A DNA stretch of 64,000 bases. It comes from a virus. The position numbers were made by a program, and so were the translations under genes. Below the pieces are notes generated by a model. The model worked only from the letters and a program-made list of their open reading frames with translations. It was not told the DNA's origin and made no database searches. The DNA lies in IMG/VR virus record IMGVR_UViG_3300001460_000016, positions 13,116 to 77,115 of that record, one strand, 5' to 3'. This document shows positions 19,495-49,546 of the stretch, one piece after another. Numbering within the stretch: position 1 is the first letter of the stretch; each line of letters opens with the position of its first letter.

Positions 19495-20940
19495 TCACTG
19501 AGTTGCACCACTACCAGAGTTGATACCGTGAAGGTTATCAATTCTGAAGATACGGTAGTACTGGTTGAGGCGAGCACCGAGGTTCTCACCGTCGGCACCA
19601 CCGGCCGTACCGGGAACGAATGGGTTAGAGACAAGACCGTAACGGGTCTTGAATCCGATCTTGGGCTGGAAGGTATTCTCACCAACCGCACGAACCATCT
19701 GTAGTGGAACGTATGGGCAGTAGAAGAGTCCGGCGTCATACTGACTGGAACCCTTATAACCTACGACGCAGTAGTTGAAGTCGGCGTATGGGTCAATGTA
19801 GACCTTTAGGCGACCGTTGAGTGTACCGACAAAGGTGTTGCCTGTGTCGTCAACTTGGAGACTTCCGCCACCCATTGGGGTTGACTGAAGTGATCCACTG
19901 AGTGCGAGTGCAGCAGCGACATCTGAAGAACAGATGACGATGTTACCCTTACCGCGTCGAGTTTGTCGTGCGACAAGGTTGGCTTCACGTTCGATTTGGA
20001 AGAGCAGACCACGGAAGCGTTCTGCGGACCATCGACCGTCTGAGTCGGAGAGGATATTGTAGACACCACCGATACCGCCGGCGACACCGAAGGATACTCC
20101 AGCAGCGGCCTTACCGTGGAGGTCAAGTTGCTGACAACCAAGTTTGGAAACCTTGAGAATGGTACGAACAACTTCTCGGTTGATTTCCGCGAGGATTTCA
20201 GTTGAGAGGATGTTAGCGAGTTCGGTCTCGGCATCAAGTCCGTGAACAGCACGGAGGTCTTGAGCGAGTTCAGTTGAGTATTCGGCCTTGAGGGCACGAG
20301 TCTTCGCCTGAACTGCGGTTCTCTCGATGGAGAATGCCATTTGCTGGAATGCACTGGCACCAGATCCGTCGAGTGCTTCAGCATTCGGAGTGGTGAGTCC
20401 ACCGCTAACGAACCCGGTGATTGGATCACCCTGTGATGCTCCGGGCGCTGTTCCATCCAAGAAGACACTATCACTTGAGAGTGCTGGATCACCAGTTGTT
20501 AAACCACCAGCGTTTGTGGCGTAACCTGTACGAGCTTCGTCGAAGAGTGCTTCGTCACCACGAGCATCAGCTGCGGAAACGTAGTTGCTCTTCATTGCAA
20601 AGATAAGTCCGGTAGGACCAGTCATTGGCTGGACACCGCAGATATCATAAGCAATTAGGTTTGGCATGGAACGACGAACCAGTGAGATAAGCACTGGGTC
20701 GAAGGACTGAACATTCCCTTGACTGTGTGCGTTGTTACCAATACCATTAACCATACCAAGCTGCATACCGCTGTTTGGAACGGCTTCAGAGAGGTACTGT
20801 TCTTGGTTCTCAAGAAGAACGGCTGTGACATTCTTCTTGTATGAATCGGTAATTGTTGGCAGTTCTGGATGTTCCAGAATTGGTTGCCATTTTGATTTTA
20901 CTTGCTCAGCGAGCGAAGCAGTTTGATCGTAGTTAGACAT
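19495..20940 (-). CDS. 23: Major capsid protein gp23
   Basis: LLENQ, DPVLISLVRR.MPNLIAYDICGVQPM.GPTGLIFAM, RALKAEYS.ELAQDL.AVHGLDAE.EL, FQPKIGFKTRYG. Confidence 0.99.
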   Translation of the reverse strand: MSNYDQTASLAEQVKSKWQPILEHPELPTITDSYKKNVTAVLLENQEQYLSEAVPNSGMQLGMVNGIGNNAHSQGNVQSFDPVLISLVRRSMPNLIAYDICGVQPMTGPTGLIFAMKSNYVSAADARGDEALFDEARTGYATNAGGLTTGDPALSSDSVFLDGTAPGASQGDPITGFVSGGLTTPNAEALDGSGASAFQQMAFSIERTAVQAKTRALKAEYSTELAQDLRAVHGLDAETELANILSTEILAEINREVVRTILKVSKLGCQQLDLHGKAAAGVSFGVAGGIGGVYNILSDSDGRWSAERFRGLLFQIEREANLVARQTRRGKGNIVICSSDVAAALALSGSLQSTPMGGGSLQVDDTGNTFVGTLNGRLKVYIDPYADFNYCVVGYKGSSQYDAGLFYCPYVPLQMVRAVGENTFQPKIGFKTRYGLVSNPFVPGTAGGADGENLGARLNQYYRIFRIDNLHGINSGSGATQ

Positions 20941-20963
20941 CTAAAATCTCCTTTTGATTTAGA

Positions 20964-22100
20964 TTATTTTCTTGTTTGACGTGAAATTGCTTGGGCGTAG
21001 TAACTCATTGGACCAGTTGTTTCCTGAATGGAAGTTGGTTCCTCTGAATCTGATTCTTCTGTGATAAAGGTAACTTCATCCGAAGCGTTTGACTTGGTGA
21101 AGTAACCTTCTTTAAGAACTGCGAGTTTATCTGCGAATTGTTCGGCGTTATCAAAGTCAATGCCTTCTGCGAGTGAACGAAGTTTTTCGACATCAGTGTC
21201 TACTAGATCTTCGGTCATTTCGGTAAAGACACCTTCGACGTGAAGGCCTTCCATTTCGTTTCTCATTTCCATGTTTCGTTCAATCTCTTCGTTGAGTTTG
21301 GCGGTGAGGTCTTCGAGTTCCTCGGCCATACCTTCAACGACATCGAATTTCTCTTCAGGAATATCAATGTAGTGATTGGCGAATACACCGCGAAGATCTT
21401 CCATGAATGACTCAGCGACTTCAGCACGAATGCCTCGTTCGACTGCGAGTTCATTATCCTTCATCCAGTTCTCAACGACATATCCTAGATAGTCATCAAG
21501 TTCTTTAGTAAGGTTTTCTTCAATCTCTGCGGCTGTTTCCATAAGTCGTTCGTTGTAGTTCTCTTCGAGAGCTTCAGCGTATGTTCCTAATGAATCATTA
21601 ATAGCAGCTTCGAAGATTACAGTTGCCTTCTCCTTGAAGTCTTCTGTTAGTTCTTCGCCTGCGAAAAGAGCATCCATGTGTTCTTTCATATGAGGCTTCT
21701 CGATTTTGGGAGAAGCAGCAGATGATTTAGCACTGATTGATTTCTTGTTTGTTTTATCTTTGCCCTCAGTTCCGGCCTCAGTACCAATGACTGGACCCTT
21801 ACCTGTGGCATCGAATGCGGACTTACCGGTGGCGTCTTTCTCGACAGCGGCGCCTTTTTCTCCGGCCATTGATGGTTTCTTAGGCTTCATTTCGGGTGAC
21901 TCCTCTTCTAAGTTGTCTTGATCCTCTTCGTCCTCGTCGAATTCCTCATAATCATTATCTTCGAGAGTGATAAATTCATCATTCTCGTCTTCTTCGATCG
22001 CAAGGCCTTCGACCAGTTCCGAAGCTTCGTCTTCTTTACGGTGTTTCTCGGCAAGAATGTTTCTTGCTGCCTCGATTGGGCTTAGGCTATCTGAACTCAT
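20964..22100 (-). CDS. 22: Prohead core scaffold gp22
   Basis: Acidic; LTEDFKEKATVIFEAA, DYLGYVVENWM.DN.LAVE.G; between gp21 and gp23. Confidence 0.95.
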   Translation of the reverse strand: MSSDSLSPIEAARNILAEKHRKEDEASELVEGLAIEEDENDEFITLEDNDYEEFDEDEEDQDNLEEESPEMKPKKPSMAGEKGAAVEKDATGKSAFDATGKGPVIGTEAGTEGKDKTNKKSISAKSSAASPKIEKPHMKEHMDALFAGEELTEDFKEKATVIFEAAINDSLGTYAEALEENYNERLMETAAEIEENLTKELDDYLGYVVENWMKDNELAVERGIRAEVAESFMEDLRGVFANHYIDIPEEKFDVVEGMAEELEDLTAKLNEEIERNMEMRNEMEGLHVEGVFTEMTEDLVDTDVEKLRSLAEGIDFDNAEQFADKLAVLKEGYFTKSNASDEVTFITEESDSEEPTSIQETTGPMSYYAQAISRQTRK

Positions 22101-22133
22101 TTAAGGACTCCTTTTGTTACCTTACAGTAGTAG

Positions 22134-22141
22134 TATTTAGT
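22134..22141 (-). promoter_or_regulatory. Late promoter ACTAAATA (gp22-23)
   Basis: Intergenic xxTAAATA. Confidence 0.7.
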
Positions 22142-22145
22142 AAAA

Positions 22146-22790: not shown

Positions 22791-22813
22791 AGTTCTTCTT
22801 TCTTGATGTTATG

Positions 22814-23227: not shown

Positions 23228-23252
23228 TTTAAGTCTCCTTAGAGTTCTTGTA

Positions 23253-23260
23253 TATTTATA
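23253..23260 (-). promoter_or_regulatory. Late promoter TATAAATA
   Basis: Exact consensus, intergenic. Confidence 0.85.
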
Positions 23261-23271
23261 AAAACGTGTTT

Positions 23272-24639: not shown

Positions 24640-24644
24640 AATTA

Positions 24645-25562: not shown

Positions 25563-25565
25563 AAA

Positions 25566-26069: not shown

Positions 26070-26072
26070 TTA

Positions 26073-27635: not shown

Positions 27636-27660
27636 ATCACTTCCTTCATGTTAAAATATA

Positions 27661-28274: not shown

Positions 28275-28282
28275 TATTTATA
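28275..28282 (-). promoter_or_regulatory. Late promoter TATAAATA (gp19)
   Basis: Exact consensus. Confidence 0.85.
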
Positions 28283-28296
28283 CGAGATTTTTAAAA

Positions 28297-32240: not shown

Positions 32241-32244
<4 letters not shown>

Positions 32245-33146
32245 ACAGTTTCTCCTCCTCCATCTATCACATCACCAGTTCCAGATCCAACCGGGTTATT
32301 AAACTGGTATTCCGTTTGTGTAAACGTATAAGGTGGTATGGCAGATGGATCCGTTTGAGAACCATCAATAAAGATTCCAGTACCACCTGATATTCCAATA
32401 TCAATTCTTGCCACCGCTCCAGTTGCTCCGCAGAGTCCTGCGACCTGTCCTGAAGTCAATCCATCCCCGAGATCAAACAAAGTAGACTTTGTGTATATAA
32501 TTGTTTTGTCTCTTCTGACTGGTCCATAAAGATAACTCTTTACATTAAATGTTAATGTCCAGTTCAGTAATCTTCTAGTTTCCATTTCGCCGAGAAAATC
32601 ATAATCTAGGTTTACGCCTTCTAGAACAATAGGCAAGTCAATCTTGGTATTGATGTCCGATGTTCCGCCCGCCGTCTGAAAAGTTACGTTAAATTCTGGA
32701 GTGAAGTATGGAACAATCTGTTCTACAATCTGTAATCCATCTTCAAACGTAGACGCATAAACACCGAGTTCAAATCCCATGTTATATGGTACTTCGGCAT
32801 ACTGATATGATAATTGTCCTTGCGTATTTTCAATATCCTTTACCCGGCGGCGGTGAATAGTATTCCTCTTTCGACTCGCATCATAATTCAAAGATGTCAT
32901 ATTAAAAGACATTCTAGGTAGAGTCATCTGAACATGAGCGTTTGGATACTCGTCGTCATTCAAACGACTATCTTCTTTGAGTCGTTGAATATATTTTTCC
33001 CTTGCAGCATAAGCGAGTGGGACTTGAATACTTACTCGTTCAGTACCATCGGCGTTTAACTTCTGTACCTTGATATTATCGAACAACGTACCGAAAGCTA
33101 CAACGGTATTTCTTATCGTCTCATGGTAGAAATGTGATTTAAACAT
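32241..33146 (-). CDS. 15: Tail sheath stabiliser / completion protein gp15
   Basis: FYHETIR..VVAFGTLF, VPLAY, LPRMSF, QIVEQIVPYFTP. Confidence 0.95.
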
Positions 33147-37417: not shown

Positions 37418-37641
37418 TAATTATTTCCTCTAGTCAGTAATGTCTGTAACATGGATTTGATTTCACTCATTTCATGTTGCAAAGAATTTTGTTGCTCTTG
37501 TAGTTTTGTAATCTGATCTTTATCTTCACTTTTTTGCTTGTAAGCAAGAAGCGCTTCTTTATTTTGAGAAAGAACTGCGCCAGATTTTAGATCTCTGACC
37601 AAATCTTTTCTACCTTCAATATTTAGGAATCCTGAACTCAT
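37417..37641 (-). CDS. Small coiled-coil hypothetical protein
   Basis: DLVRD..SGAVL...EMSEIKSMLQTL, of the type that follows DUF4815 genes in T4-like phages. Confidence 0.75.
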   Translation of the reverse strand: MSSGFLNIEGRKDLVRDLKSGAVLSQNKEALLAYKQKSEDKDQITKLQEQQNSLQHEMSEIKSMLQTLLTRGNN

Positions 37642-40600: not shown

Positions 40601-43600
40601 TTGAGATGTACAATCTACCATTCTGGTAAAGATTATCTCGTTGTCCGTTGTCCAGTGAGAATAAGTTAAATACATCGGCGGTTGCTGAAATACCTCCATC
40701 GAAGGCAGAAACGAATGAGTAGATATCATTATTCGATAATTCGAAGTATTTCAATCCAGTGGCTGATGTTTTAATATCACCTGTTGCGAGTGTGGTTGAA
40801 ACTTCTTTTAGTTTCTTGAATCTAATTGGACTTGTGGTAATACTTTCACCCGGATTTACATCCAACATGGCAATAAGATCAAACTTGGTAGTATCTGGAT
40901 ATGTCCCAGTACCACCGCCAGTGTTCTTGGTTACAGTTAATTTGCCTAGGTCACCGAAATCTGTGTTGTTGGTTCTAAGTGTAAAGGCATCTGAGAACAG
41001 ATCCATAATCTTACCATTATTATCTACCATGATATAGTTGTTTAGATCAGTTCCATCTACTACACCACCAGAAACTCCACCTCCTACGAATCGAATATTA
41101 GAATTTCCGGAAGAAGCCTCGGCAGATAGATCACTAGGATTATCAAAGGTTATTGGGAATGACTTGATTACTCTGTAGTCAAGAGAATTAATTGTCTTGA
41201 CCACATCTCCTACTGGAACTGGGAAAACTAACTTGTTCTGATCAGGATTGAATACCTTACCAATATAAGTTGGATGAACATCAAACAGTTTACCGCCGGC
41301 GGATTGAACTAATCCAGCTCTGTTTGTTTGTTTTGCGAATCCATAAAAAGCTGAGTTCATTTCATTTAGGAAGAACTTAACACCGGATCTCTTGTTGCCC
41401 ATATTCACATCAAAGAGTGAAACTTGTTGAGCGTCATTTGATTGTTCTTGAATTTGCCTAATTCTTGCTGTACCAATAGTAACTGGAACCTGCGTTGTAG
41501 TATATTGATCCATAGAAGAACCAGCAGTACCAAGGAATCCATTGAAGTATGCACCGTTTAGTCCATAAGAATTCTGAACGGTCGTGACTTTACCTGTTGG
41601 ACTTGGAACAAATCCAGTTACACCAGATGATACCGAGAGAGTTCCTTCTAAAATTGGTTTTGCATTTGCACCAACCTCGAAAGAAGCACCATTAGTTGAA
41701 TCTAACTCAATGAGAAGTGTTGTGTCTTGAACGTCAGCAGAATTTCCTGAGTTCCTTGCCGTGAAATTTACCACCGTACCAGTTGCGTATTTGGTTGGTT
41801 GTGATCCCGGAACATTCTGAGTAACTTTCTCACCGACCGAATAGAATCGACCGGGAACAAAATTACTCTTGGACTGTAGAAGTTGAGTTCCTGTTTCACC
41901 TTCAGTATATGAACCAAAACCATTGAAATTAGCAGTTGTAATATTATAAGGTCCAGCCACATCAACGATATTACTAAAGTTTTCTGAAACGTCACTATTT
42001 GAATTTATACCATTTCCACCATATCCAACGAAAGCCATATCACATGATGTATCTCTAAGACCATATATATAACCAAGATCGCGTTGGAATCCTTGGAAAC
42101 CTGTGCAGATTTCTAATAGGAGTCTGTTTTGACTATTATCCCAACTGATTACGTTACCCTTATTGATTATGTTTGGGTCACCAATATAATTATTATAATC
42201 AATTCTCGAATTGTCCCAGTCATTATATGTAAACTGAACGACTAGTTGTCCGTGCTTATACGAAGTAGAAACAGTTCCACTGTCAATCAATCCCGACGCA
42301 GTTTGATTGTCAACCGCAGCTGATCCGGCATTGAAGTCTGCATCAACTTTACCTTCGTCCTGAAGTACATTTAGATATCCATCACCAACAATACCGGGAT
42401 CGTCTGATTCGAATCTGATCTCTTGTACTGACATGTCAGCAGTAAAACCTGGCCTCAATCCATAATGGAATTGGTAATCTACGGTTGCTCCACTTGAAGG
42501 AGCAGAAGTGGAAACTAAGTCTATAAGACCATTAAATCCAACGGTACAACCAGCTCCGAAACAACCATCACATGTATTACCAAATGCGTAGTTAGGAAGA
42601 ACTCCGGGATAGGAAAGACTACTAAAACCACAAGATGCTGCAAAGTTTACACCTGATACCTGTTCGGCATAAAGAATAGGACCATTTACAGTTAGTACCC
42701 AACCAACAACTTCAGCTATTGCTTCTGACAAATTATTTGGATCAGTGTAAGCATATCCACCACCAGAAGCACCGAGTGTAAAACCTCCGGCCGCCGGACT
42801 TCCGGTTGCTCCATATTGGAATTGTCTCACTACATCACCAATTGCAAAGTTAGATGCAGAGTTGTAACCATTCTGACCAGTAACATAAGCATCCGCAACT
42901 GGAAATGCGTATATATTTTTATTAATGATGGAGTTGATACTAGACCCATATGAAACTGGACTGCAACTTTGAGTTGAACCACTAATTCCAGCCCAACCCT
43001 GTTGAATAACACCACCGGATTTCTCAAACCCTCCGGTCCCTGCTGATTGTAGAATCATCGAACTGCCAGATCTAAAGGTAACAGACTCCGCTGGAACCCA
43101 TCGTCTAGCAACACCACCAGCTCTAACGTAAGCATTTGGTCCGTTTCCTGCACCAAGATCGCCGTCAATATTACCCATAAAAACCTGTCGAACAAACGAA
43201 CAAGTAGCACCGGGAGTTCCTATTTGACCTTTAAAGGAAGCATACTCATTTAAATTGGGTGCAATTCCTCGACCTATATTGTAGTTTACACCACTTCTAT
43301 AATTCTGCCGAAAAGTTATTTTTTGTAGAAAACGGTCTGCACTTGCACCGGGAGAATTTGCACCGGAACTAACATAACCACCTTGATTGTCAATTGCAGT
43401 CGGCAGATAATATGCGGATGATGCGGATCCCACAATTAAAGACGTATCTGATGATTCCATAGTAGCGGAAGCAAAATTATCGATAACAAGAGCACTATCG
43501 AATGAACCGTCATGTTCTGTGGCAAACAAAGGAGCCCAATATCTAATGGTAGCTGTTCCTGCTTCATTGGCCCTATATGGAATGTTGACTTGAATGAACT

Positions 43601-45245
43601 TACCTTTAAGATCTACTTTGGGTAAATTGTTATATTCAAAGGGGCCATCTGTTCCTAATATAGAAACACCAGAATCGAATGGGTAACTGTCAAATCTATT
43701 TCCAGAATATTTGATTGCTACATCATTGACGGGGAGTGCATCTGTCTCTGCAACGATAAAATTGCCTAAATTAGCATTTAGATTAGCACCAATTAAAGAC
43801 TCGTCTGTTCTTGCTCTGTCCGAAGAGATATTTGTTTTAGATTGTGTTTCAAATTCATAACCAAAAACATAAGCCTTACCGGGATTTATGGATACGGCCA
43901 ACTTAGATGCAGTACCACCTTGTTCTGTACTGTAAATACCTGTCGAATCTGGCAAGAACGATATTGCGCTTACAGTTCCGGTAGCTGGATCTGGACTTCC
44001 ATTGTTGGTCATGCTGATACCAGTTGCAAATCTCCCAGAATCCATGTCTACGATTAATCTCTGTGCGGTAGAACCGATGAAGTTTGTTCGATCTAATACA
44101 TTGAGAACCTCAGCAGTAACACCATTATTGCTAACATTATCTCCAATACCAAAAGTTGCCGCGGCCGAACTTAGGGTAACATCTACTTGATACTTGTCAA
44201 TTCTAAGATTGTTTAGAATAGTAGCATTGAATGGTGTAACGGTATAGTTACCAGATTCGTCGAATGTTCTTCTTGCAAGTGTCTTTTCTAATTCAGCATA
44301 TTGTGTCTTGCTATATCGTTTAGTAATCTTACCGTTTTCAACTCGAAGGACATCTACGAAGTCTTCGTCAATAAATTCAGACGGAGTATTCGTGGTAATG
44401 TTCAGAACCTTGGAACTGAAAACAGGATCTACTTGATACCGATCGGCACCGGGTGCAGAGTAGTTATAAGAACCCTTGGCAGGATCGACAAGAGTAGGAT
44501 CGTCGATGTTGTCAATAATCTTCTTGTTAATTTGAAGACCGACTCGGTTGGTTGGGAATTGATAAAGACGAACGCCCGCTGATGCACCTGCCGCAGTTCC
44601 TTCTTCACCAGAAGATGGACTTTCAATTTGATTGGCTGTCGATAATCTAAAAGGTAAATTAGTTTGTGGGTTGATGTAAACGAAGAAACCGTCAACGTAG
44701 AACACACCAGTATCGATGGAACATGCCAGTGCATCGCCTGTTGGTGCAACTAAATCGGATGTTGTTGATTTTACTGCAAAGTTTATATTCTGAGTTTCAC
44801 TGTAAATTTGATCACCCAGACCGAATGAATCAGCAGCAGTTCCACCACCACTTAAATATTGAAGAAACACAACGGGGAAAGTATCTACACCAGTAGAGAG
44901 AGGAGCTTCTGTTGAAATTACTCTCGCTCGTAGATTTGATTTATCACCTGTACCAGTTAAGAAGTCACCGGCAATAAGAGCTCTGTTTGCTTCACTTAAA
45001 CCTGTGGTGCGAACATAACCTACGTTCTTTTCTGTCAGACCAGAACCGAGAACCGGAGTTCCGTTCTTAAAGACATGATCTCCAAAACGCTCAATCTGTG
45101 TTTGAAGGGCGGTTTGGAGTTGAGTGAGTTCTCTTGCTTGAACGGCGAATCCTGGCTTGAAAAGAATCTTAAGATAATTCTTTGTCTTGTCAAAATCGTC
45201 GTAGTATGGATCTCCCGATGTTAATTCAGGGTCATATGAAGGCAT
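37638..45245 (-). CDS. Very large virion structural protein (DUF4815 / VrlC-like, baseplate-associated)
   Basis: PYYDDFD..KNYLKILFKPG.AVQARELTQLQ, APGADR, LARRTFDESGNY, FTMRDIGRLE.RI..IEYY..LSLLE, DRFKNG..VD.F, P.VKDLR.IALA. Confidence 0.88.
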   Translation of the reverse strand: MPSYDPELTSGDPYYDDFDKTKNYLKILFKPGFAVQARELTQLQTALQTQIERFGDHVFKNGTPVLGSGLTEKNVGYVRTTGLSEANRALIAGDFLTGTGDKSNLRARVISTEAPLSTGVDTFPVVFLQYLSGGGTAADSFGLGDQIYSETQNINFAVKSTTSDLVAPTGDALACSIDTGVFYVDGFFVYINPQTNLPFRLSTANQIESPSSGEEGTAAGASAGVRLYQFPTNRVGLQINKKIIDNIDDPTLVDPAKGSYNYSAPGADRYQVDPVFSSKVLNITTNTPSEFIDEDFVDVLRVENGKITKRYSKTQYAELEKTLARRTFDESGNYTVTPFNATILNNLRIDKYQVDVTLSSAAATFGIGDNVSNNGVTAEVLNVLDRTNFIGSTAQRLIVDMDSGRFATGISMTNNGSPDPATGTVSAISFLPDSTGIYSTEQGGTASKLAVSINPGKAYVFGYEFETQSKTNISSDRARTDESLIGANLNANLGNFIVAETDALPVNDVAIKYSGNRFDSYPFDSGVSILGTDGPFEYNNLPKVDLKGKFIQVNIPYRANEAGTATIRYWAPLFATEHDGSFDSALVIDNFASATMESSDTSLIVGSASSAYYLPTAIDNQGGYVSSGANSPGASADRFLQKITFRQNYRSGVNYNIGRGIAPNLNEYASFKGQIGTPGATCSFVRQVFMGNIDGDLGAGNGPNAYVRAGGVARRWVPAESVTFRSGSSMILQSAGTGGFEKSGGVIQQGWAGISGSTQSCSPVSYGSSINSIINKNIYAFPVADAYVTGQNGYNSASNFAIGDVVRQFQYGATGSPAAGGFTLGASGGGYAYTDPNNLSEAIAEVVGWVLTVNGPILYAEQVSGVNFAASCGFSSLSYPGVLPNYAFGNTCDGCFGAGCTVGFNGLIDLVSTSAPSSGATVDYQFHYGLRPGFTADMSVQEIRFESDDPGIVGDGYLNVLQDEGKVDADFNAGSAAVDNQTASGLIDSGTVSTSYKHGQLVVQFTYNDWDNSRIDYNNYIGDPNIINKGNVISWDNSQNRLLLEICTGFQGFQRDLGYIYGLRDTSCDMAFVGYGGNGINSNSDVSENFSNIVDVAGPYNITTANFNGFGSYTEGETGTQLLQSKSNFVPGRFYSVGEKVTQNVPGSQPTKYATGTVVNFTARNSGNSADVQDTTLLIELDSTNGASFEVGANAKPILEGTLSVSSGVTGFVPSPTGKVTTVQNSYGLNGAYFNGFLGTAGSSMDQYTTTQVPVTIGTARIRQIQEQSNDAQQVSLFDVNMGNKRSGVKFFLNEMNSAFYGFAKQTNRAGLVQSAGGKLFDVHPTYIGKVFNPDQNKLVFPVPVGDVVKTINSLDYRVIKSFPITFDNPSDLSAEASSGNSNIRFVGGGVSGGVVDGTDLNNYIMVDNNGKIMDLFSDAFTLRTNNTDFGDLGKLTVTKNTGGGTGTYPDTTKFDLIAMLDVNPGESITTSPIRFKKLKEVSTTLATGDIKTSATGLKYFELSNNDIYSFVSAFDGGISATADVFNLFSLDNGQRDNLYQNGRLYISNNGLESAGTVADVKDKKANLAGPISVVYRYFEHSGIGPFVSESYINDSPASGEIKFTFDDIPEYTSPDSGEVINLNKVIDFRPTFNGTSFDAVFLPASGQSFNISYSYFLPRIDKLVLTRDKEFKVIQGVPALEPTTPDKVVDAMELYKFYIPAYTYKSTDVISKFIENKRFTMRDIGRLERRIQQIEYYSTLSLLERQTESLFIKDENGNDRFKNGIIVDQFSGHNIGDVKNEDYNVAMDFENQELRSPFTSRSVDFNVKTLNSLHKTSDNLVMLPFTSESLNTQPLSTSTVNLNPFTVTNWLGRAKLTPPSDNWYDDTQNPDVLVNIEGENDAWKVLGSKAFGTQWNDWKTNWVGSESMSDTILNKNAKGISRTTDVTSSRQLRTGIETRMVPERIVKEIGSMFVDLSVVPFVRSKSIAITATNLRPNTKVHAFFDGANVDEHCTFISGSNTYRLTEADLITDSTGSIPSSVSLTFNIPTGQFRVGEKLFRLTDSATNVVSAANTSAEMIYPVEGLVDTREDITITTRKPNLIRKSVNEERIITDTDTDLFVNESSPTNPVSQTFFVSPSEYPNGVYVDKVSIYFKSKSSTLPVTLQLRPTSNGYPSSSIVYPFAEVVKNASEVNITESPDVASVGSATTFTFSSPVYLLPGEHAVSLKTNSDEYSTYIAVMGDKQIGTEIPVTEQPNLGSLFRSENAGKWEADTTADLMMQVSKCKFTSGGLNVLTLKEEKGSGGYTDEIKLDTGNLNAEVTNWPESRFDIKMRFTPNNPSNVSATSTEFAVTTNESFSFDSSRKINLNASDTNETLILNATISGTDDHVSPVFDLDQISLISVENIIEGAKDLTPGGSNNNGELDPQAKPVSTGSVPRARYISRQVNLADGFESKNIRVILNEYKPQNTDIQVFLKQQPAGEDAPFENEPYVQLTASTTGTFDGFREVEYNLPTDLTEAMGKFTIKVCMYADGAPLNTAVVPRVKDLRTIALA

Positions 45246-45259
45246 GTTTCTATTACTCC

Positions 45260-47728
45260 CTAAAAGTCAATTACGACTTTGATTTCTTCGTCTTGATCTG
45301 GATTTCTTTGCACTGGTCTTACGTTCTCTATGTATAACACTTGTCCGGTATTTCTGAGGAATTCCGGTATAGTTGTTCCTAGAACTTCACCAGTAAAACC
45401 ATTCAGTGAAATTACATTTCCTGCTGTCAGTGAACCAATTGTAGATGTTAGGAACATGTCTACGGTACTTCCGGCCGGTCCTGAAGTTGTTCCTGTTGCA
45501 TAACCAAAACTTACTAGTGTAGAACTAAACTGGTTTGCGTTTGCGTTAACGGATAAGTCAAGAAGACTTGCACTAAGTTGGAATTGCGGACTAGTAAAGA
45601 ACGACTGTACCTTAGTTGTAAGTCTATGTGACTCATCAATATTTACTGGTTGACTTTCAGTTTTGGTAATAGTTCCTACTGGAGAATTGCTTAGTTGAAC
45701 TGTGCCATCTTCTAATAGTGATCGGAAACCAAATACCTTTTCGCCATCTAGTTGAGTTCCGAGTGCAACGCGAGGAGCAATAAACGAACCAACTTTATTC
45801 GTGAGTGTCATAGTTCCTCGTTCACCATCTGCATCAGCAACGAATCGAGTTACTTTGGCAGTAGAACCGGAGTCCATACCGTACACAATAGATCCGATTG
45901 GGAATGATTCATTGACGAATGTCTTACTATGTGTTACGGAATCTACAAAACCACCGAAACTATTTCCGTCTCCGCCAAATGTGTAACCGGTTCCTGTTGT
46001 TTCTCCATAGAAAATTCTACCGGAGGTAACGGAACTTGGTCGTTCATCTGGAATTACACAAGCTCTAAATGACCCGTTATCTACAGACACGGTTAGTTTA
46101 CCGGCGGTATCTGGAATCCAATTAGTCACTGTTCCTCTTGCCTGTGTTGTGCTGTATTCACCTTGATGAATCTTTTGTCCAACAACAAATGCGTCTACTG
46201 GGTGAGTCATTCCCGGTGTTCCCACTGTATGGAAATCTATAACAGCAGTATTATTTTCGTTTCGTATTCTTACATCGGTAAAGTTCGGTGTTGCAGTTCC
46301 CGCAACGAATCCAGCAGTAACTCCCGCAGTCCATCCTGCAAGTTGTGGGTTCTTAATGATTGAGAATTTTCTAAAATCATTAAGAACATCAAACGCTCCA
46401 CCTTCCGAACCCTTCAACAGTGTTCGAATCATTACTTTGTTTGCACCTAATTCGTATGGGGCATTGGAACCATGTCCACCTAGTGGCGAACCAACTGCGG
46501 AAGCTTGGAATCCAATTCCAGCAGCAGTGGAACCTGATGGAGTCAACATCTGAATTGAGGGATCAGTAATACCGGATCCGGGATCAAGAACTCGAATGTC
46601 AGTTATTACCTTCGTAGTGTCTACAATACCATCGGTATCTCTAGGTATACTAACATCAGTAGAGAAAGAAATTCCCTGAAACACTGGATAGACAACAGCG
46701 TTCTGTTCAGATGTATTCCCAGTTCCACTTGCAACATAGATGTAAGGTACAATATTAAAATACGCCGGGGTACTGGAACTTGGTACAAACGATGGGGTAT
46801 TTTCAAACCTTGTAGTGAAAACATCTCCACCAGATGTTCCGAGAATTTTCTTATAGAAACCTATTTTAGTATAGGAAGTTGGATTATTCGGTACATTATC
46901 TGTTCCCATATCAAGATCAGTTAGTGCCCAGTCTGTATACTGTCCGGCGGCATATGAATTGTTTACTGTCCATTTGCAAGCATCTACGTCTCCGAGTGGA
47001 GTAGGGAATACTGATGTGTTATCCAAACCATAAACTGAATGCTTTATGTAGAATGTTCCATCAGAACTATTTCCCTTCCTCATTATTTCTGATCCGGACC
47101 AGTAACTTCCAGAACGATCTAGTTTAACTCCGAATACTCCACCATTCGAGGCATTTTCCTGAACCTCTCGTTGAAGGTATTCGATTGTTCCAATCTTGGT
47201 AGTGGAACCTGCAACCGAAACGGGAATATAATCGTCGGTGACAAAATCTAAATCTTCTTCTTTGAGTTGATACATGAACTGCCAAGAATAACCATCGGCA
47301 CCGGGAGTTTGATAATCTGGATAAGTATGTGTTGGTTGAACTGTAGACGCAGTAGAACCTGCATTATTATCAAGACACTTATAGACTCGATACTGTGGTG
47401 TCATTACATAGAACGGTTTTGATTCGTATGTCGCAGATCGAAAGATCTCATTCGTATCTGAGAATTGAGAATATGTTACTCCAGATGTCCAGTCGTATCT
47501 TTTTGCTACGAGTCTCGCATCTTTACTTGTAATTTTCTTTGCAGCGATAGCAGAAGACCAAGAACTAAATTGGTTACTAGACGTATCCATAGAAGTTGGT
47601 GGTGTGTTTTCGTTTGGCCATGTTTCTGGCCGAGAAATCATCAGAAAGAAAGAATCCGAGTCACTTGAAAAGTCATCAAGAAACGATTCTGCTGCTGATA
47701 CATTGAAAGAAAATTGCAAGTTGGACAT
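45260..47728 (-). CDS. 8: Baseplate wedge subunit gp8-like (extended)
   Basis: RYDWTSG..Y, FYVMT...VYKCLDN, DGYSWQFMY, GGHGSN...ELGA, NDFR...IIKNP, G.VLYIEN..P..R...Q.EEIKVVI.F. Confidence 0.85.
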   Translation of the reverse strand: MSNLQFSFNVSAAESFLDDFSSDSDSFFLMISRPETWPNENTPPTSMDTSSNQFSSWSSAIAAKKITSKDARLVAKRYDWTSGVTYSQFSDTNEIFRSATYESKPFYVMTPQYRVYKCLDNNAGSTASTVQPTHTYPDYQTPGADGYSWQFMYQLKEEDLDFVTDDYIPVSVAGSTTKIGTIEYLQREVQENASNGGVFGVKLDRSGSYWSGSEIMRKGNSSDGTFYIKHSVYGLDNTSVFPTPLGDVDACKWTVNNSYAAGQYTDWALTDLDMGTDNVPNNPTSYTKIGFYKKILGTSGGDVFTTRFENTPSFVPSSSTPAYFNIVPYIYVASGTGNTSEQNAVVYPVFQGISFSTDVSIPRDTDGIVDTTKVITDIRVLDPGSGITDPSIQMLTPSGSTAAGIGFQASAVGSPLGGHGSNAPYELGANKVMIRTLLKGSEGGAFDVLNDFRKFSIIKNPQLAGWTAGVTAGFVAGTATPNFTDVRIRNENNTAVIDFHTVGTPGMTHPVDAFVVGQKIHQGEYSTTQARGTVTNWIPDTAGKLTVSVDNGSFRACVIPDERPSSVTSGRIFYGETTGTGYTFGGDGNSFGGFVDSVTHSKTFVNESFPIGSIVYGMDSGSTAKVTRFVADADGERGTMTLTNKVGSFIAPRVALGTQLDGEKVFGFRSLLEDGTVQLSNSPVGTITKTESQPVNIDESHRLTTKVQSFFTSPQFQLSASLLDLSVNANANQFSSTLVSFGYATGTTSGPAGSTVDMFLTSTIGSLTAGNVISLNGFTGEVLGTTIPEFLRNTGQVLYIENVRPVQRNPDQDEEIKVVIDF

Positions 47729-47744
47729 TTATTATTCCTTAGTT

Positions 47745-47752
47745 TATTTATA
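47745..47752 (-). promoter_or_regulatory. Late promoter TATAAATA (gp8)
   Basis: Exact consensus. Confidence 0.85.
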
Positions 47753-49546
47753 CTACAAGTCTTGCCCGTAATTGTTCGGTACGTCTATAGAACCCTGTGT
47801 TCCCTGAGAACTATAACTGGATCCGGCCACGGGAGGTGAGGTTAATATGTATGGACCTAATATAAAGTCCTGCAATCTAATTGCACCCCATGTCACACCA
47901 TTACCATATGTTGACCTAACTCCTCCATGCCATGTGTTTGGATGTGGGTGAACAATCCACCAATCTATGTTGTTGGATGGCCATCCCGGCATGGTAGATC
48001 CGGTATACTCTCCGTCATCGAATTGACCAAAAAATTCTTGCGTAGCACCAATTCCACCAAACCTGCGAAAGTTTTGACTACTCCACCCAGAAGAAATTCC
48101 AGCACCCAAATCAGAGGCCGCGGTTCTTGTGTTTCCTTGTATATCATATGAATTTGCCGTGTCATAACCATATGGAAAATAATCAATAAGAAAACCATCT
48201 AGAATTGCACTACCCGCTAGATTATCTACAACCACTCCTCGCAAATCAAAATTCGAAGGCAACACACCAGTTGATGCTAATGATGATGTACATGTGACTC
48301 CATTTGAATTATTACCTGCAAGAGCGATAGTATATGGAAAATAATTTGCAAATTGAGGCATCTCATCACGCAGTAGTCCAAACCCACCAACATCTGCTGT
48401 TGCACTTTCCTTTCGGTATACAAAATAATCACCCAGTACAAGTTTACCACTTGGGTGTGCAAATTCTTTTAAGGTGTCTTTGTATTCACTTAAATTTGCT
48501 TCTGTTCTTACCACATATGAATGAATCTGATATCGATAGTTATCTTGTAACTTTTCGGTAGAAGAAACCTTACCATCATTGTTGGTCCAGTATCCCGGTC
48601 TAGTTACTTTTGAATTTTTAATTACTGACAACCCACTTACACCTGTACCAGTTTTTGAATCTACTGTTACTGTGTATGCTACAGGAATTTCAACATAATT
48701 TAAACCGGGATCATCAATCCGAATGGATCTAATTGTTCCGGTTTTTGTTACTGACTCTACAGAAGCTTTGGCTCCTTTTCCAGATAATCCAGAAGACGTT
48801 TTAATAATCACAAGATCATCAGGTTGGTAATTTAATCCGCCGTTAGAGAATGTTATTCCAGATATCATACTCAATAGAGCAGAAGAAAATTGAATTGGTT
48901 GATCAGGTCTAGAAACAACTTTTCCGGGATATGGTGTTGTTCCAATCACCGAGGTCAGTTCCAATTCTAGAATCGGAGTACCATCTTTCTTAAACTGATT
49001 TAAATCTACAATAGTAGCAGAACCTTGCTCGACTGAATTTGAATCAACAAACAGAACTCTCGTATTTCTAAGTGTTCTACTTCTTTCAGGATCTCCATCA
49101 ATACATCTTACGATAGTTGGTTGAATCCATCGACCACCGGAAGCATTAAGTATATCAGTTGAAGGAATGTAAACTTCAGAATATACATCAAACAAAGCTC
49201 TCAGTAAAAACCTAATGGATGATTCTGTACCCTTTGCTAGATAAAAAGATCGAACTCGTTTTAAGACCGATCTCATATCCAGAGTATCTCCCTTTACGGA
49301 AGTGTAATTGTCTGGAAAACCTTTGAATACTTCACTCTTGAAATACTTCACGAAGTCATCAGTAGTCTGATCGATGTCAACCGTACCAAGTAAACTCATT
49401 GGTGCGAAGTAAGAATTGTCCTGTGATTCTAACCACTTATAATATTCTTCGACAAACGTAACAAACAGAGGGTGGTCCTGAACAACAAAGTCAGGAAGAT
49501 TCTCTGAGACTACATCTGAAATTTTATTTCGTGGGTATCTTGGCAT
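47753..49546 (-). CDS. Baseplate wedge protein gp7-like
   Basis: LPDFV..DHP.FV.F...YY.WLE, FY.AKGT..SI.FL.R.LF, LQDNY.YQ..SYVV, HPSG; between gp6 and gp8. Confidence 0.8.
   Translation of the reverse strand: MPRYPRNKISDVVSENLPDFVVQDHPLFVTFVEEYYKWLESQDNSYFAPMSLLGTVDIDQTTDDFVKYFKSEVFKGFPDNYTSVKGDTLDMRSVLKRVRSFYLAKGTESSIRFLLRALFDVYSEVYIPSTDILNASGGRWIQPTIVRCIDGDPERSRTLRNTRVLFVDSNSVEQGSATIVDLNQFKKDGTPILELELTSVIGTTPYPGKVVSRPDQPIQFSSALLSMISGITFSNGGLNYQPDDLVIIKTSSGLSGKGAKASVESVTKTGTIRSIRIDDPGLNYVEIPVAYTVTVDSKTGTGVSGLSVIKNSKVTRPGYWTNNDGKVSSTEKLQDNYRYQIHSYVVRTEANLSEYKDTLKEFAHPSGKLVLGDYFVYRKESATADVGGFGLLRDEMPQFANYFPYTIALAGNNSNGVTCTSSLASTGVLPSNFDLRGVVVDNLAGSAILDGFLIDYFPYGYDTANSYDIQGNTRTAASDLGAGISSGWSSQNFRRFGGIGATQEFFGQFDDGEYTGSTMPGWPSNNIDWWIVHPHPNTWHGGVRSTYGNGVTWGAIRLQDFILGPYILTSPPVAGSSYSSQGTQGSIDVPNNYGQDL

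What the first reader, a model, noticed from the sequence alone, without database searches (positions are those of the whole stretch)
19495..49546. A recurring G-x-[S/T] motif across surface-exposed virion proteins: a possible glycosylation sequon
Seen: GAT/GVT/GIS/GLT/GYT tripeptides, often in tandem, cluster in loops, insertions and termini of otherwise conserved proteins. Examples: gp23 (GGLTTG, GASQG, GVSFG, C-terminal GSGATQ), gp18 (GVSSGVSG, GATG, AGATAS, GGTATGG), gp15 tail (GLTSG, GATG, GISGGTG), gp14 (GVTGASG), the 167-aa protein (7 copies), the 847-aa fibre (about 40 by hand count), gp8 (GWTAGVTAG, GETTGTGYT), gp7 tail (GVTC, GISSG, GATQ, GVTW) and the DUF4815 protein. They are sparse in gp21, gp22, gp20, gp2 and the replication proteins. 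Inference: the same short motif in many unrelated outer proteins suggests an enzyme recognition site, e.g. O-glycosylation of Ser/Thr by the phage GTs, giving a whole-particle glycan coat. Caveat: these proteins are G/S/T-rich anyway.
Basis: partly seen in the sequence, partly recalled or inferred. Interest (0 to 1): 0.8.

Follow-up and report, generated by a model that had tools for sequence, protein, structure and literature searches.

The report
Gly-x-Ser/Thr motif on phage surface proteins
A short Gly–small residue–Thr/Ser motif is only weakly over-represented in this one phage, but it is about 1.8-fold over-represented in the exposed virion proteins of its whole clade of uncultured marine T4-like phages, all sampled members of which carry a protein-glycosyltransferase-like gene next to collagen-like fibre genes, so virion glycosylation is a credible but unproven idea.

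Summary
Every quoted string and count is in the sequence. In this window alone the broad G-x-[S/T] motif is not above composition, except in the 847-aa fibre (43 vs 28). Without the fibre the named set gives 113 vs 98, and the control dipeptide [S/T]-G is more enriched.

Comparison rescues the idea. Eight other T4-like contigs with a homologue of the contig's GT2-TPR gene show the motif in gp18, gp23, gp15 and gp14: 160 observed vs 94 expected (10-aa-block shuffles). The reverse motif gives 95 vs 95. Eight complete phages without that gene give 71 vs 72.

At clade level the enrichment is specific for Gly, for an uncharged middle residue and for Thr/Ser. It is absent from inner and non-virion proteins, and most sites sit at different alignment positions in each phage.

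The GT2-TPR gene resembles the flagellin O-GlcNAc transferase GmaR. In 46 of 67 viral loci a collagen-like fibre gene follows it.

Caveats: all motif-rich phages form one clade, exposure was not computed, and no glycan has been shown.

The parts
19495..20940 (-). gp23 major capsid protein (481 aa). It has 10 G-x-[ST], of which 6 are G-hydrophobic-[ST], at aa 146, 167, 181, 194, 281 and 478.
   Evidence: phrog_138 E 7e-148. Motif counts: 6 vs 3.0 expected. Sites 146-194 align to the indel-rich region after the T4-type gp23 I-domain linker. In T4 the I-domain forms protrusions on the capsid surface (PMC9546572). GAT at 478 lies in a C-terminal extension that S-SM1 and a T4-like phage lack.
25566..26069 (-). 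167-aa Ig-like beta-sandwich protein. It is a paralogue of the ~150-aa gene that sits between GT2-TPR and the collagen fibre gene. It has 7 G-x-[ST] and 5 G-hydrophobic-[ST].
   Evidence: phrog_1084. 29% identical to the contig's 149-aa protein (E 8e-10). AF2 with 27 homologues: pLDDT 73.5, pTM 0.72. Best Foldseek matches are ~140-aa chains in the T5 tail-tip and DT57C baseplate structures (8hqz_Q E 2.6e-6; 7qg9_L and 7qg9_J). The motif sites fall in or next to loops 70-78, 89-99 and 133-144. The family has a conserved G-V-T-G-G-G-S-T-G loop.
28297..30126 (-). gp18 tail sheath (609 aa). It has 11 G-x-[ST] and 5 G-hydrophobic-[ST], all within aa 95-318.
   Evidence: phrog_23 E 2e-123. 5 vs 3.6 expected, which is not significant on its own. 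The loop at aa 95-102 keeps a G-[VAI]-[ST] through indels in relatives.
32241..33146 (-). gp15 tail sheath stabiliser (301 aa). G-hydrophobic-[ST] at aa 229, 240 and 251, in the C-terminal tail beyond the family profile.
   Evidence: phrog_227 covers aa 1-218 only. 3 vs 1.6 expected. G-[LF]-T at 229 and G-I-S at 251 are partly kept in relatives, and distant relatives have a new G-[VA]-T at the extreme C-terminus.
33146..33799 (-). gp14 neck protein (217 aa). G-W-S at 163 and G-V-T-G-A-S at 176-181, in the C-terminal part.
   Evidence: phrog_460 and phrog_679. 3 vs 1.2 expected. Conservation is shown.
34874..37417 (-). 847-aa fibre with no known family. It is the one protein in the window with a clear excess: 43 G-x-[ST] vs 28.2, and 24 G-hydrophobic-[ST] vs 10.3.
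   Evidence: No Pfam or PHROG hit. 26 homologues exist at 42-100% identity; the 24 aligned are all enriched (z 1.5-6.1). Six motif positions are kept in at least 20 of 24 (aa 3, 36, 41, 229, 304, 529). The remainder is near chance level.
37037..37135 (-). Collagen-like tract inside the fibre (aa 95-127): 11 consecutive G-X-Y triplets, 6 of them with Thr or Ser at Y.
   Evidence: Sequence read. The nine Gly of the tract are invariant in 24 homologues. Pfam Collagen gives only weak sub-threshold hits on homologues.
47753..49546 (-). gp7-like baseplate wedge protein (597 aa). It has 9 G-hydrophobic-[ST], all in aa 230-550.
   Evidence: phrog_17744 and Pfam Baseplate_wedge match the N-terminal part. 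9 vs 3.9 expected, p 0.012.
37638..47728 (-). The DUF4815 2535-aa protein and gp8.
   Evidence: DUF4815: G-x-[ST] 38 vs 41.6; G-hydrophobic-[ST] 21 vs 15.5; 13-22 vs 13-16 in six relatives. gp8: 9 vs 6.3.
2..4296 (-). The window's end of a roughly 13.5-kb sugar operon: methyltransferase, short DegT-type aminotransferase, formyltransferase, an unknown ORF, a GT2 and a DXD glycosyltransferase. The operon continues upstream on the contig to the GT2-TPR gene, the 149-aa Ig-like gene and two collagen-repeat fibre genes.
   Evidence: Pfam hits. Contig layout. GT2-TPR lies at contig 3915-5171 (-). Its best solved relatives are GmaR (4.6e-12) and SunS-family enzymes. The fibre at contig 1445-3406 matches Pfam Collagen at E 6.6e-14 and has 13 consecutive G-X-T triplets.

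Best explanation
G-[A/V/I/N/S/T/G]-[T/S] is a short linear motif kept at raised density in the outward-facing parts of the virion proteins of one deep clade of uncultured marine T4-like phages. The affected proteins are the collagen-like and other fibres, the capsid region equivalent to the T4 I-domain, the variable part of the sheath, and the tails of neck proteins gp14 and gp15.

The most economical mechanism is that the motif is the acceptor site of a phage-encoded cytoplasmic protein O-glycosyltransferase. The candidate initiating enzyme is the GT2-TPR protein encoded beside the fibre genes. Its primary substrates would be the (G-X-T)n collagen tracts of the fibres, as with Clostridioides difficile SgtA acting on BclA3. 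Isolated G-x-T/S units in flexible loops of other virion proteins would be secondary substrates. The other glycosyltransferases and nucleotide-sugar enzymes of the 13.5-kb operon would then extend the glycan.

Shown here: Inferred only: that any of these proteins is glycosylated, that GT2-TPR is the enzyme, and that the motif is what it reads.

Within this window alone the signal is weak. It is carried mostly by the 847-aa fibre, gp7 and the 167-aa protein.
For: 1. Replication on unseen genomes. In eight other GT2-TPR+ contigs, gp18+gp23+gp15+gp14 hold 160 G-hydrophobic-[ST] vs 94.3 expected from 10-aa-block shuffles (z 7.4). The reverse motif gives 95 vs 95.5. Broad G-x-[ST] gives 322 vs 234.6 (z 7.3). 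Non-tandem sites give 104 vs 71.5 (z 4.1). Eight GT2-TPR-free complete phages give 71 vs 72.3. Per-phage ratios are 1.36-2.31 against 0.44-1.39. Four further GT2-TPR+ contigs give 44 vs 29.2.
2. Inner and non-virion orthologues (gp13, 17, 19, 20, 21, 22, 3, UvsW, gp46, gp47) give 78 vs 91.6 in the same phages.
3. Residue specificity. G-h-X is enriched only for T (102 vs 47, z 8.6) and S (75 vs 45, z 4.9), not for A, N, D or G. X-h-[ST] is strongly enriched only for G (177 vs 91, z 9.7; Trp and Pro are marginal, z about 3). The middle residue favours A, V, I, N, S, T, G and disfavours D, E, K, R, Q. None of this appears in the control phages.
4. Sites are not inherited. gp18 has 61 motif columns among 9 phages, 52 of them private. 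gp23 has 38, with 32 private. Sites found in at most two phages number 136, against a whole-protein expectation of 90.8.
5. The effect is at protein level. Codon use inside the motif equals overall use, and 85 sites use 75 different 9-mers.
6. The enzyme. It has a GT2 domain plus TPR and an invariant DxD region. Its best solved relative is GmaR (E 4.6e-12), which I know as the Listeria flagellin O-GlcNAc transferase, followed by SunS-type peptide S-glycosyltransferases. The GT-A plus TPR architecture matches SgtA, which adds O-GlcNAc to Thr, and also Ser, of GPT collagen peptides and is encoded next to its substrate gene (PMC7157674).
7. Synteny. A collagen-like ORF starts within 3 kb downstream of the GT2-TPR homologue in 46 of 67 viral loci, against 0 of 74 upstream. 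26 of 47 loci with at least 6 kb downstream hold tracts with S/T-rich Y positions. The unrelated jumbo phage Tunturi_5 has a 34%-identical GT2 gene 3.7 kb from a tail fibre with (G-A/P-T)n tracts.
8. GT2-TPR presence and absence were checked with a profile on whole records, with positive controls.
Against: - No glycan, mass shift or expression timing has been observed.
- All 9 GT2-TPR+ phages placed on the tree form one clade (SH-aLRT 100); the other 4 were not placed. The gene and the motif therefore correlate through a single phylogenetic event, and any other clade-specific cause would fit equally well.
- The excess is only 1.4- to 1.9-fold, so about half the sites are expected by chance.
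- In this window alone, gp23, gp18, gp8 and DUF4815 are not individually significant.
- In about half of the loci the first collagen gene after GT2-TPR has Q, K or R rather than T or S at the Y position (25 of 50).
- In the fibre family, S/T at motif sites is no better conserved than other S/T (0.65 vs 0.57).
- The similarity to GmaR and SunS covers only the GT domain and is far below NCBIfam family cut-offs.
- Published interpretations of such clusters favour modification of host LPS (PMC7029224) or of the host cell surface and phage DNA (PMC12801897).
- Surface exposure could not be computed. The tool returns no coordinates, and the fibre model failed.
Confidence: 0.42

Rival explanations
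1. Clade-specific structural habit with no modification. The variable loops and tails of these phages' outer proteins are built from Gly-rich turn-plus-strand units or short collagen-like G-X-T units. These are either favoured for folding and trimer packing or repeatedly seeded from the abundant G-X-T fibre repeats. The sugar operon serves another purpose, such as altering the host envelope.
For: - The trait maps to one clade.
- True collagen tracts with Thr at Y occur in three fibres of this contig, and their X residues are the same set as in the dispersed motif.
- 24% of dispersed sites are followed by Gly at +3.
- Six motif positions in the fibre family, and the G-V-T-G-G loop of the 150-aa family, are conserved like structural residues.
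- G-M/L-T/A-T at gp23 aa 181 is shared even with a T4-like coliphage.
- Marine myophage GT clusters are usually read as host LPS or host cell-surface genes (PMC7029224, PMC12801897).
Against: - The usual turn-forming residues N, D and G are not enriched at position 3; only the hydroxyl residues are.
- Non-tandem sites are still enriched 1.45-fold.
- Gly at +4 is as enriched as Gly at +3, so there is no clear 3-residue periodicity.
- Most sites are private to one phage and lie in fast-evolving loops, where neutral remnants should decay.
- Orthologous proteins with the same folds in eight other T4-like phages show no excess.
Confidence: 0.33
2. The motif is read by something other than a glycosyltransferase. 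Candidates are another hydroxyl-directed modification (phosphorylation, acylation), an assembly chaperone, or a host or environmental ligand that binds G-x-T/S-rich surfaces.
For: Methyltransferases and a formyltransferase lie in the same operon.
Against: I found no kinase or other protein-modifying enzyme in the 77-kb contig. The only gene with relatives that act on proteins is GT2-TPR, and it is the gene that co-occurs with G-X-T fibres.
Confidence: 0.1
3. Nothing beyond composition and hand-picking. These are G/S/T-rich proteins, and the reader listed those where the tripeptide caught the eye.
For: In the window the broad motif is at expectation outside the fibre (113 vs 97.7). The control [ST]-G is more enriched. 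Three G/S/T-rich structural ORFs have no G-hydrophobic-[ST] site. Without the fibre, the whole module gives z 1.9.
Against: In the window itself, G-hydrophobic-[ST] ranks first of 251 class triplets in the named set.
Confidence: 0.07

Closest known systems
BclA / BclA3 exosporium collagen-like glycoproteins with the SgtA glycosyltransferase (Bacillus, Clostridioides difficile)
   Same: Surface fibres with (G-X-T)n collagen tracts. A GT-A domain plus TPR glycosyltransferase is encoded beside the substrate gene. SgtA adds O-GlcNAc to Thr, and also Ser, of short GPT peptides, so recognition is local (PMC7157674). The contig has 13 consecutive G-X-T triplets two genes from its GT2-TPR.
   Different: The context is a phage virion, not a spore. 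X is A, V, L or M here rather than Pro. Orthology to SgtA was not tested because no SgtA sequence was available. Half of the GT2-TPR-linked collagen genes in other phages have few Thr. The proposal extends to isolated motifs in non-collagen proteins, which is not known for BclA systems.
GmaR (Listeria flagellin O-GlcNAc transferase) and SunS/ThuS peptide S-glycosyltransferases
   Same: These are the closest solved relatives of the phage GT2-TPR (E 4.6e-12 and 1.2e-5; NCBIfam SunS family 6.5e-8). They are cytoplasmic GT2 enzymes with helical repeat domains that act on protein or peptide acceptors (my own knowledge for GmaR's function).
   Different: The similarity covers only about the first 115 residues and lies far below family cut-offs. 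The acceptors differ (flagellin, lantibiotic-like peptides). Membership in either family is not shown.
Mycobacteriophage virion glycosylation (Freeman et al. 2023, Cell Host Microbe; cited in PMC12582341 and PMC11256854)
   Same: Phage-encoded glycosyltransferases are reported to decorate virion proteins, so the general idea of a glycosylated tailed phage has precedent.
   Different: I could not read the paper, so its sites and enzymes were not compared. The hosts (actinobacteria) and phage type (siphoviruses) are different. I know of no report of a G-x-T/S motif or of collagen fibres there.
Giant-virus fibril glycosylation (Mimivirus, Megavirinae)
   Same: Virus-encoded nucleotide-sugar pathways for rare bacterial-type amino sugars, together with glycosyltransferases, decorate surface fibrils (PMC9614988, PMC10117803; titles and abstracts seen). 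The contig's operon likewise has aminotransferase, formyltransferase, C-methyltransferase and epimerase genes.
   Different: The hosts are eukaryotes and the virion architecture is unrelated. No sequence relationship was tested.
Glycosyltransferase clusters in the hypervariable fibre region of pelagimyophages and cyanomyophages
   Same: The genomic habit is the same: tail-fibre genes, collagen-repeat proteins and several GT and LPS-type sugar genes sit together (PMC7029224; PMC12801897).
   Different: Those papers read the clusters as modification of the host surface, or in one case phage DNA. The cultured members tested here (HTVC008M, Mosig, Melnitz, P-HM1, S-SM1) lack the GT2-TPR gene and lack the motif excess.

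Membership tests
Protein O-glycosylation acceptor motif (sequon) | The motif is over-represented against composition in the proposed substrate proteins, and not in non-substrates. | tested here: met
   At clade level: 160 vs 94.3 in gp18, gp23, gp15 and gp14 of eight unseen phages; inner and non-virion proteins 78 vs 91.6 (nine phages, window included). In the window alone the feature is met only for the fibre, gp7 and the 167-aa protein.
Protein O-glycosylation acceptor motif (sequon) | A hydroxyl residue is required at the acceptor position. | tested here: met
   In G-h-X only T (z 8.6) and S (z 4.9) are enriched. A, N, D and G are not. This is statistical evidence, not biochemical.
Protein O-glycosylation acceptor motif (sequon) | Acceptor sites are solvent-exposed in the assembled particle. 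| tested here: inconclusive
   Sites lie in the I-domain-equivalent region of gp23, in terminal tails, and in low-confidence loops of the 167-aa model. No accessibility could be computed, and the fibre model failed (pLDDT 33).
Protein O-glycosylation acceptor motif (sequon) | A cognate protein glycosyltransferase is present. | tested here: inconclusive
   The GT2-TPR has GmaR and SunS as nearest solved relatives and an SgtA-like architecture. It is present in all 13 motif-rich phages and absent from 8 controls. Its activity and acceptor are unknown.
Protein O-glycosylation acceptor motif (sequon) | A glycan is covalently attached at the motif. | not testable with these tools
   This needs mass spectrometry or glycan staining of virions or recombinant proteins.
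Collagen triple-helix repeat proteins (Pfam PF01391) | An uninterrupted run of G-X-Y triplets that matches the family profile. | tested here: met
   Met for the contig's upstream fibre (E 6.6e-14; tracts of 13 and more triplets). The 847-aa fibre inside the finding has only 11 triplets. It gave no Pfam family at E up to 0.01, and its homologues give only sub-threshold hits, but its tract Gly residues are invariant in 24 homologues.
BclA/SgtA-type collagen glycoprotein system | A GT-A plus TPR glycosyltransferase gene lies adjacent to a (G-X-T)n collagen-like surface protein gene. | tested here: met
   Contig order is GT2-TPR, 149-aa gene, collagen fibre. The same order occurs in 46 of 67 viral loci, with S/T-rich Y tracts in 26 of 47. 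It also occurs in Tunturi_5.
BclA/SgtA-type collagen glycoprotein system | Sequence orthology of the enzyme to SgtA, and O-GlcNAc on collagen Thr. | not tested
   No SgtA sequence was available to compare, and biochemistry is needed.
T4-like (Straboviridae/Kyanoviridae-type) structural module | gp23, gp20, gp18, gp19, gp17, gp13-15 and gp6-8 homologues in the conserved order. | tested here: met
   PHROG and Pfam hits. gp23 is at most 56% and gp18 about 51% identical to the listed cultured phages (one unlisted gp18 hit lies in the 60-80% band). The tree places the window in a distinct clade of uncultured contigs.

The most novel reading that the evidence does not exclude
A whole, deep clade of uncultured marine T4-like phages coats its particles with phage-made O-glycans. 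The coat would cover the collagen-like fibres, the capsid surface loops, the outer part of the sheath and the neck. A GmaR/SgtA-like GT2-TPR enzyme would start the glycan on G-[small or beta-branched]-[T/S] units. Selection would keep these units at about twice the chance density, while their positions drift freely. This would be a sequon-driven glycan shield analogous to those of enveloped animal viruses, but made in the bacterial cytoplasm by the phage's own 13.5-kb pathway.
Probability: 0.3. Interest if true: 0.85.

Novelty: new variant of a known kind. Interest (0 to 1): 0.66.

Why it matters
Virion glycosylation is established in tailed phages only for some mycobacteriophages, and no acceptor motif is known for a T4-like phage.

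If the motif is a sequon, three things follow.
- The sugar and glycosyltransferase clusters that fill the hypervariable regions of abundant ocean myophages would need re-reading, at least in this clade, as virion-decoration machinery rather than host-LPS genes.
- Phage capsids and sheaths would join fibres as glycan-bearing surfaces. That has consequences for adsorption, aggregation, grazing, stability and immune or lectin recognition.
- The motif density would give a sequence-only predictor of glycosylated phages in metagenomes.

The claim is directly testable without culturing the phage, by co-expressing GT2-TPR with a fibre fragment or gp23.

Even if no glycan is found, two results stand on their own. 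One is the conserved GT2-TPR / Ig-like adaptor / collagen-fibre module, with at least 549 relatives in IMG/VR. The other is the clade-wide, residue-specific motif bias. Both would still need an explanation.

Tried and rejected
- **DNA-level cause** (a repeated oligonucleotide or codon artefact): rejected. Codon use in the motif equals overall use, and 85 sites use 75 different 9-mers.
- **Generic property of T4-like structural proteins**: rejected. Overall ratios over all non-collagen ORFs are 0.94 for ECML-134, 0.67 for DLP_6, 0.61 for C48C1, 0.77 for HTVC008M, 0.92 for Melnitz, 1.23 for Mosig, 1.07 for P-HM1 and 1.11 for S-SM1.
- **The fibre's excess is due to its collagen tract**: rejected. 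Only 1 of its 24 G-hydrophobic-[ST] sites lies in the tract.
- **Extra conservation of motif Ser/Thr in the fibre family**: not found (0.65 vs 0.57). The fibre's excess splits into roughly 6-9 deeply conserved sites plus a near-chance background.
- **Structure of the 847-aa fibre**: the AF2 model was useless (pLDDT 33), so no fold search or exposure mapping was possible for it.
- **With/without-GT comparison among close relatives of the fibre**: failed, because those contigs are fragments. The one long contig (89 kb) has the same GT and collagen layout.
- **Freeman et al. 2023**: the paper could not be read.
- **Tunturi_5 sheath**: not located with Pfam PF04984, so its capsid and sheath were not tested.
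- **Late-promoter evidence for the sugar operon**: the four exact TATAAATA all precede structural genes. Only a 7-of-8 match (CCTAAATA) lies upstream of regA and the operon, which is too weak to use.
- **Literature search** for collagen-like + glycosyltransferase + tetratricopeptide + phage: no paper found.

Full report
**What the window is.** The window is 64 kb of a 77-kb viral contig. It carries a T4-type replication and structural module, almost all on the minus strand.
- gp23 at 19495-20940
- gp18 at 28297-30126
- gp15 at 32241-33146
- gp14 at 33146-33799
- a PAAR protein at 34589-34870
- an orphan 847-aa fibre at 34874-37417
- a 2535-aa DUF4815 protein at 37638-45245
- gp8 at 45260-47728
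- gp7 at 47753-49546

gp23 is at most 56% and gp18 about 51% identical to the listed cultured phages (one unlisted gp18 hit lies in the 60-80% band), so the lineage is uncultured. The left end of the window (2-4296) holds a methyltransferase, a short DegT aminotransferase, a formyltransferase, a GT2 and a DXD glycosyltransferase.

**Check of the observation in the window.** All quoted peptides exist. The fibre has 43 G-x-[ST] and the 167-aa protein has 7. I compared counts with 1000 composition-preserving shuffles per protein, both global and within 20-aa blocks.
- The broad motif exceeds expectation only in the fibre (43 vs 28.2, z 3.6).
- The other eight named proteins sum to 113 vs 97.7 (z 1.75 global, 1.45 local).
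- G-x-x-[ST] is flat, but the control [ST]-G is more enriched than the motif (172 vs 125, z 4.9).

- It gives 85 vs 47.5 in the named set (z 5.5).
- The reverse motif gives 46 vs 47.5, and proteins outside the region give 29 vs 30.8.
- It ranks first of 251 residue-class triplets.

Over every ORF of the structural module it is 107 vs 77 (z 3.6). Without the fibre it is 81 vs 66 (z 1.9, rank 22). Three other G/S/T-rich structural ORFs have no site at all. Codon use inside the motif equals overall use, and 85 sites use 75 different 9-mers, so the effect is at the protein level and not the DNA level.

**The fibre.** Twenty-six homologues exist at 42-100% identity, and I aligned 24 of them. All 24 are enriched (z 1.5-6.1).
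- Six motif positions are kept in at least 20 of 24. Distant members share 6-12 of the query's 24 sites and carry 7-14 others, which is about the chance number.
- Ser/Thr at motif sites is no better conserved than other Ser/Thr (0.65 vs 0.57).
- The fibre has an 11-triplet collagen-like tract (aa 95-127) whose Gly residues are invariant. Only one of its G-hydrophobic-[ST] sites lies in that tract.
- An AF2 model was unusable (pLDDT 33).

**Surroundings outside the finding.** The 13 kb of contig upstream of the window hold two fibre genes with genuine collagen repeats (Pfam Collagen E 6.6e-14). One tract is 13 consecutive G-X-T triplets with X = A, V, L or M. Next come a 149-aa gene, a GT2-TPR glycosyltransferase, and a run of nucleotide-sugar genes that joins the window's glycosyltransferases: UDP-GlcNAc 2-epimerase, an SDR, a cytidylyltransferase, a PfkB kinase, a C-methyltransferase and a GT1.

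The nearest solved relatives of GT2-TPR are GmaR (E 4.6e-12) and SunS-type peptide S-glycosyltransferases. From my own knowledge, GmaR is the Listeria flagellin O-GlcNAc transferase. The GT-A plus TPR layout is that of C. difficile SgtA. SgtA is encoded next to bclA3 and adds O-GlcNAc to Thr, and also Ser, of GPT collagen peptides (PMC7157674).

**A conserved module.** The GT2-TPR family is large: more than 5500 proteins at E below 1e-10, and at least 549 relatives in IMG/VR. I examined 80 viral loci with 41-94% identical homologues.
- A collagen-like ORF starts within 3 kb downstream on the same strand in 46 of 67 loci that have enough downstream DNA. None ends within 3 kb upstream in 74 loci.
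- The Y positions are bimodal. Among 50 first-downstream collagen ORFs, 23 have at least 40% S/T (GAT, GNT, GPT, GTT units) and 25 have at most 15% (charged GEQGLQGEK type).
- 26 of 47 loci with at least 6 kb downstream contain an S/T-rich tract.
- In 47 of 80 loci the locus holds a homologue of the contig's 149-aa protein, typically directly after the enzyme gene.
- The window's 167-aa protein is a paralogue of that 149-aa protein (29% identity). With 27 homologues it folds as a beta-sandwich (pLDDT 73.5). Its best matches are ~140-aa chains in the T5 tail-tip and DT57C baseplate structures, so I read it as an Ig-like fibre-docking adaptor. Its motif sites lie in or next to low-confidence loops.
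- The unrelated jumbo phage Tunturi_5 has a 34%-identical GT2 gene 3.7 kb from a 1469-aa tail fibre full of (G-A/P-T)n tracts (G-x-[ST] 97 vs 47, z 8.8).

I took the gp18 +/- 20 kb region of eight other GT2-TPR-bearing T4-like contigs, excluding ORFs with collagen tracts. I compared them with eight complete phages that lack the gene: ECML-134, S-SM1, P-HM1, DLP_6, C48C1, HTVC008M, Mosig and Melnitz. Absence was checked with a profile on the whole records, with positive controls.

| Measure (G-hydrophobic-[ST], observed/expected) | GT2-TPR+ | GT2-TPR-free |
|---|---|---|
| All ORFs, per-phage ratio | 1.21-1.66 | 0.61-1.23 |
| gp18+gp23+gp15+gp14, summed | 191 vs 100.7 | 73 vs 67.1 |
| gp18+gp23+gp15+gp14, per-phage ratio | 1.36-2.31 | 0.44-1.39 |
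| Inner and non-virion orthologues, summed | 78 vs 91.6 | 83 vs 73.2 |

These figures come and include the window among the nine GT2-TPR+ phages.

Leaving the window out and using 10-aa-block shuffles gives the following for the eight unseen GT2-TPR+ phages:
- G-hydrophobic-[ST]: 160 vs 94.3 (z 7.4)
- reverse motif: 95 vs 95.5
- broad G-x-[ST]: 322 vs 234.6 (z 7.3)
- non-tandem sites: 104 vs 71.5 (z 4.1)
- controls: 71 vs 72.3

Four more GT2-TPR+ contigs give 44 vs 29.2 for the same four proteins.

**Specificity and site positions.** In the enriched phages:
- G-h-X is raised only for X = T (102 vs 47) and S (75 vs 45), not for A, N, D or G.
- X-h-[ST] is strongly raised only for X = G (177 vs 91); Trp and Pro are marginal (z about 3).
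- The middle residue favours A, V, I, N, S, T and G, and disfavours D, E, K, R and Q.
- The control phages show only a shared G-G-[ST] excess.

The favoured middle residues are the same set found in the X positions of the G-X-T fibre tracts.

The sites are not inherited positions. gp18 has 61 motif columns among nine phages, 52 of them private. gp23 has 38, with 32 private. Sites found in at most two phages number 136, against a whole-protein expectation of 90.8; in the controls the figures are 55 vs 63.8. In gp23 the sites cluster at roughly aa 130-200 and around aa 280-290 in each phage. The first of these aligns to the indel-rich region of T4 gp23 that follows the I-domain linker. In T4 the I-domain forms the surface protrusions of the capsid (PMC9546572).

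**The main caveat.** A tree of gp20, gp17, gp23, gp21 and UvsW (2171 columns) puts all nine GT2-TPR+ phages in one clade (SH-aLRT 100). That clade is sister to the cyanophage / pelagimyophage / DLP_6 group. The co-occurrence of the enzyme and the motif bias is therefore a single phylogenetic event, and the Mann-Whitney p of 1.6e-4 ignores that. The changing site positions argue for a persistent pressure across the clade, but they do not say what exerts it. Alignment error in variable loops may also overstate the number of private sites.

**Reading.** The most economical explanation, which I hold at about 0.4, is that G-[small, uncharged]-[T/S] is the acceptor motif of a phage-encoded protein O-glycosyltransferase. 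GT2-TPR would be the initiating enzyme and the (G-X-T)n fibres its main substrates. Dispersed units in exposed loops of capsid, sheath and neck would be secondary substrates. This is a BclA/SgtA-like system transplanted to a T4-like virion.

The chief rival, at about 0.33, is an unmodified structural habit of the clade. The published view that such clusters alter the host surface, or phage DNA, remains possible for the rest of the operon (PMC7029224; PMC12801897).

These proteins are at expectation in the window and in relatives.

**Earlier notes of this scan.** Other first-stage notes on this genome had already proposed the operon as a virion-glycosylation system and the (G-X-T)n fibre plus TPR-GT2 as BclA-like. 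I treated them as leads. The synteny, fold and comparative tests reported above are my own.

Noticed in passing
contig upstream of the window (L001:1445-5171, minus strand) and loci L030-L109: There is a conserved three-gene module in viral contigs: GT2-TPR glycosyltransferase, then a ~150-aa Ig-like protein, then a collagen-like fibre. The collagen gene starts within 3 kb downstream in 46 of 67 loci and never lies upstream (0 of 74). A homologue of the 150-aa gene is present in 47 of 80 loci. The enzyme family has at least 549 relatives in IMG/VR.
   Followed up: yes
loci L030-L109, first collagen ORF after GT2-TPR: The collagen tracts fall into two types: Thr-rich at Y (GAT, GNT, GPT, GTT; 23 loci) and charged (GEQGLQGEKGDK; 25 loci). 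Several loci carry one gene of each type in tandem.
   Followed up: partly
L132 (Tunturiibacter phage Tunturi_5, PP885688.1 28905-38126): An unrelated soil jumbo phage has a 34%-identical GT2 homologue 3.7 kb from tail fibre gp29 (1469 aa). The fibre has eight (G-A/P-T)n tracts, and its G-x-[ST] count is 97 vs 47 expected.
   Followed up: partly
window 25566-26069 (-): The 167-aa protein lies between the portal gene and the prohead genes. It is an Ig-like beta-sandwich whose best structural matches are ~140-aa chains in the T5 tail-tip and DT57C baseplate structures. It is a second copy of the fibre-linked 150-aa family, which suggests a docking site for a collagen fibre near the neck or head.
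   Followed up: partly
window 19413-19420, 23253-23260, 28275-28282, 47745-47752 (-): The four exact TATAAATA motifs in the window are all on the gene strand and sit just upstream of gene starts (gp3-like, the 137-aa gene, gp19, gp8). This fits T4-type late promoters, although the count itself is at chance level (4 vs 3.8).
   Followed up: partly
window 699-1304 (-): The DegT/PseC-type aminotransferase ORF is only 201 aa, whereas the family profiles are about 360-390 positions long. It matches two separated profile stretches, so it may be internally deleted or a pseudogene within the sugar operon.
   Followed up: no
G013:C1:867-2099 (record behind L057): The GT2-TPR homologue of this contig has an in-frame TAA. 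The contig also has the lowest overall motif ratio of the nine GT2-TPR+ phages (1.21). It is a possible natural loss-of-function case for testing the link.
   Followed up: no
window 19495-49546, structural proteins: The dipeptide [S/T]-G is more over-represented than G-x-[S/T] in the named proteins (172 vs 125, z 4.9; DUF4815 59 vs 42, gp18 17 vs 9). This is unexplained.
   Followed up: no
window 5159-6310 (-): A DruA/DUF4338-like gene (Pfam DruA E 1.9e-7) lies among the clamp-loader genes. Pelagibacter phage Mosig also has an annotated DUF4338 protein in its replication region.
   Followed up: no
L110:17151-19901 and L111:913-2820 (G007): This relative carries two tandem gp18 sheath paralogues (916 and 635 aa). 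Both are enriched in the motif (11 vs 6.1 and 7 vs 3.6).
   Followed up: no
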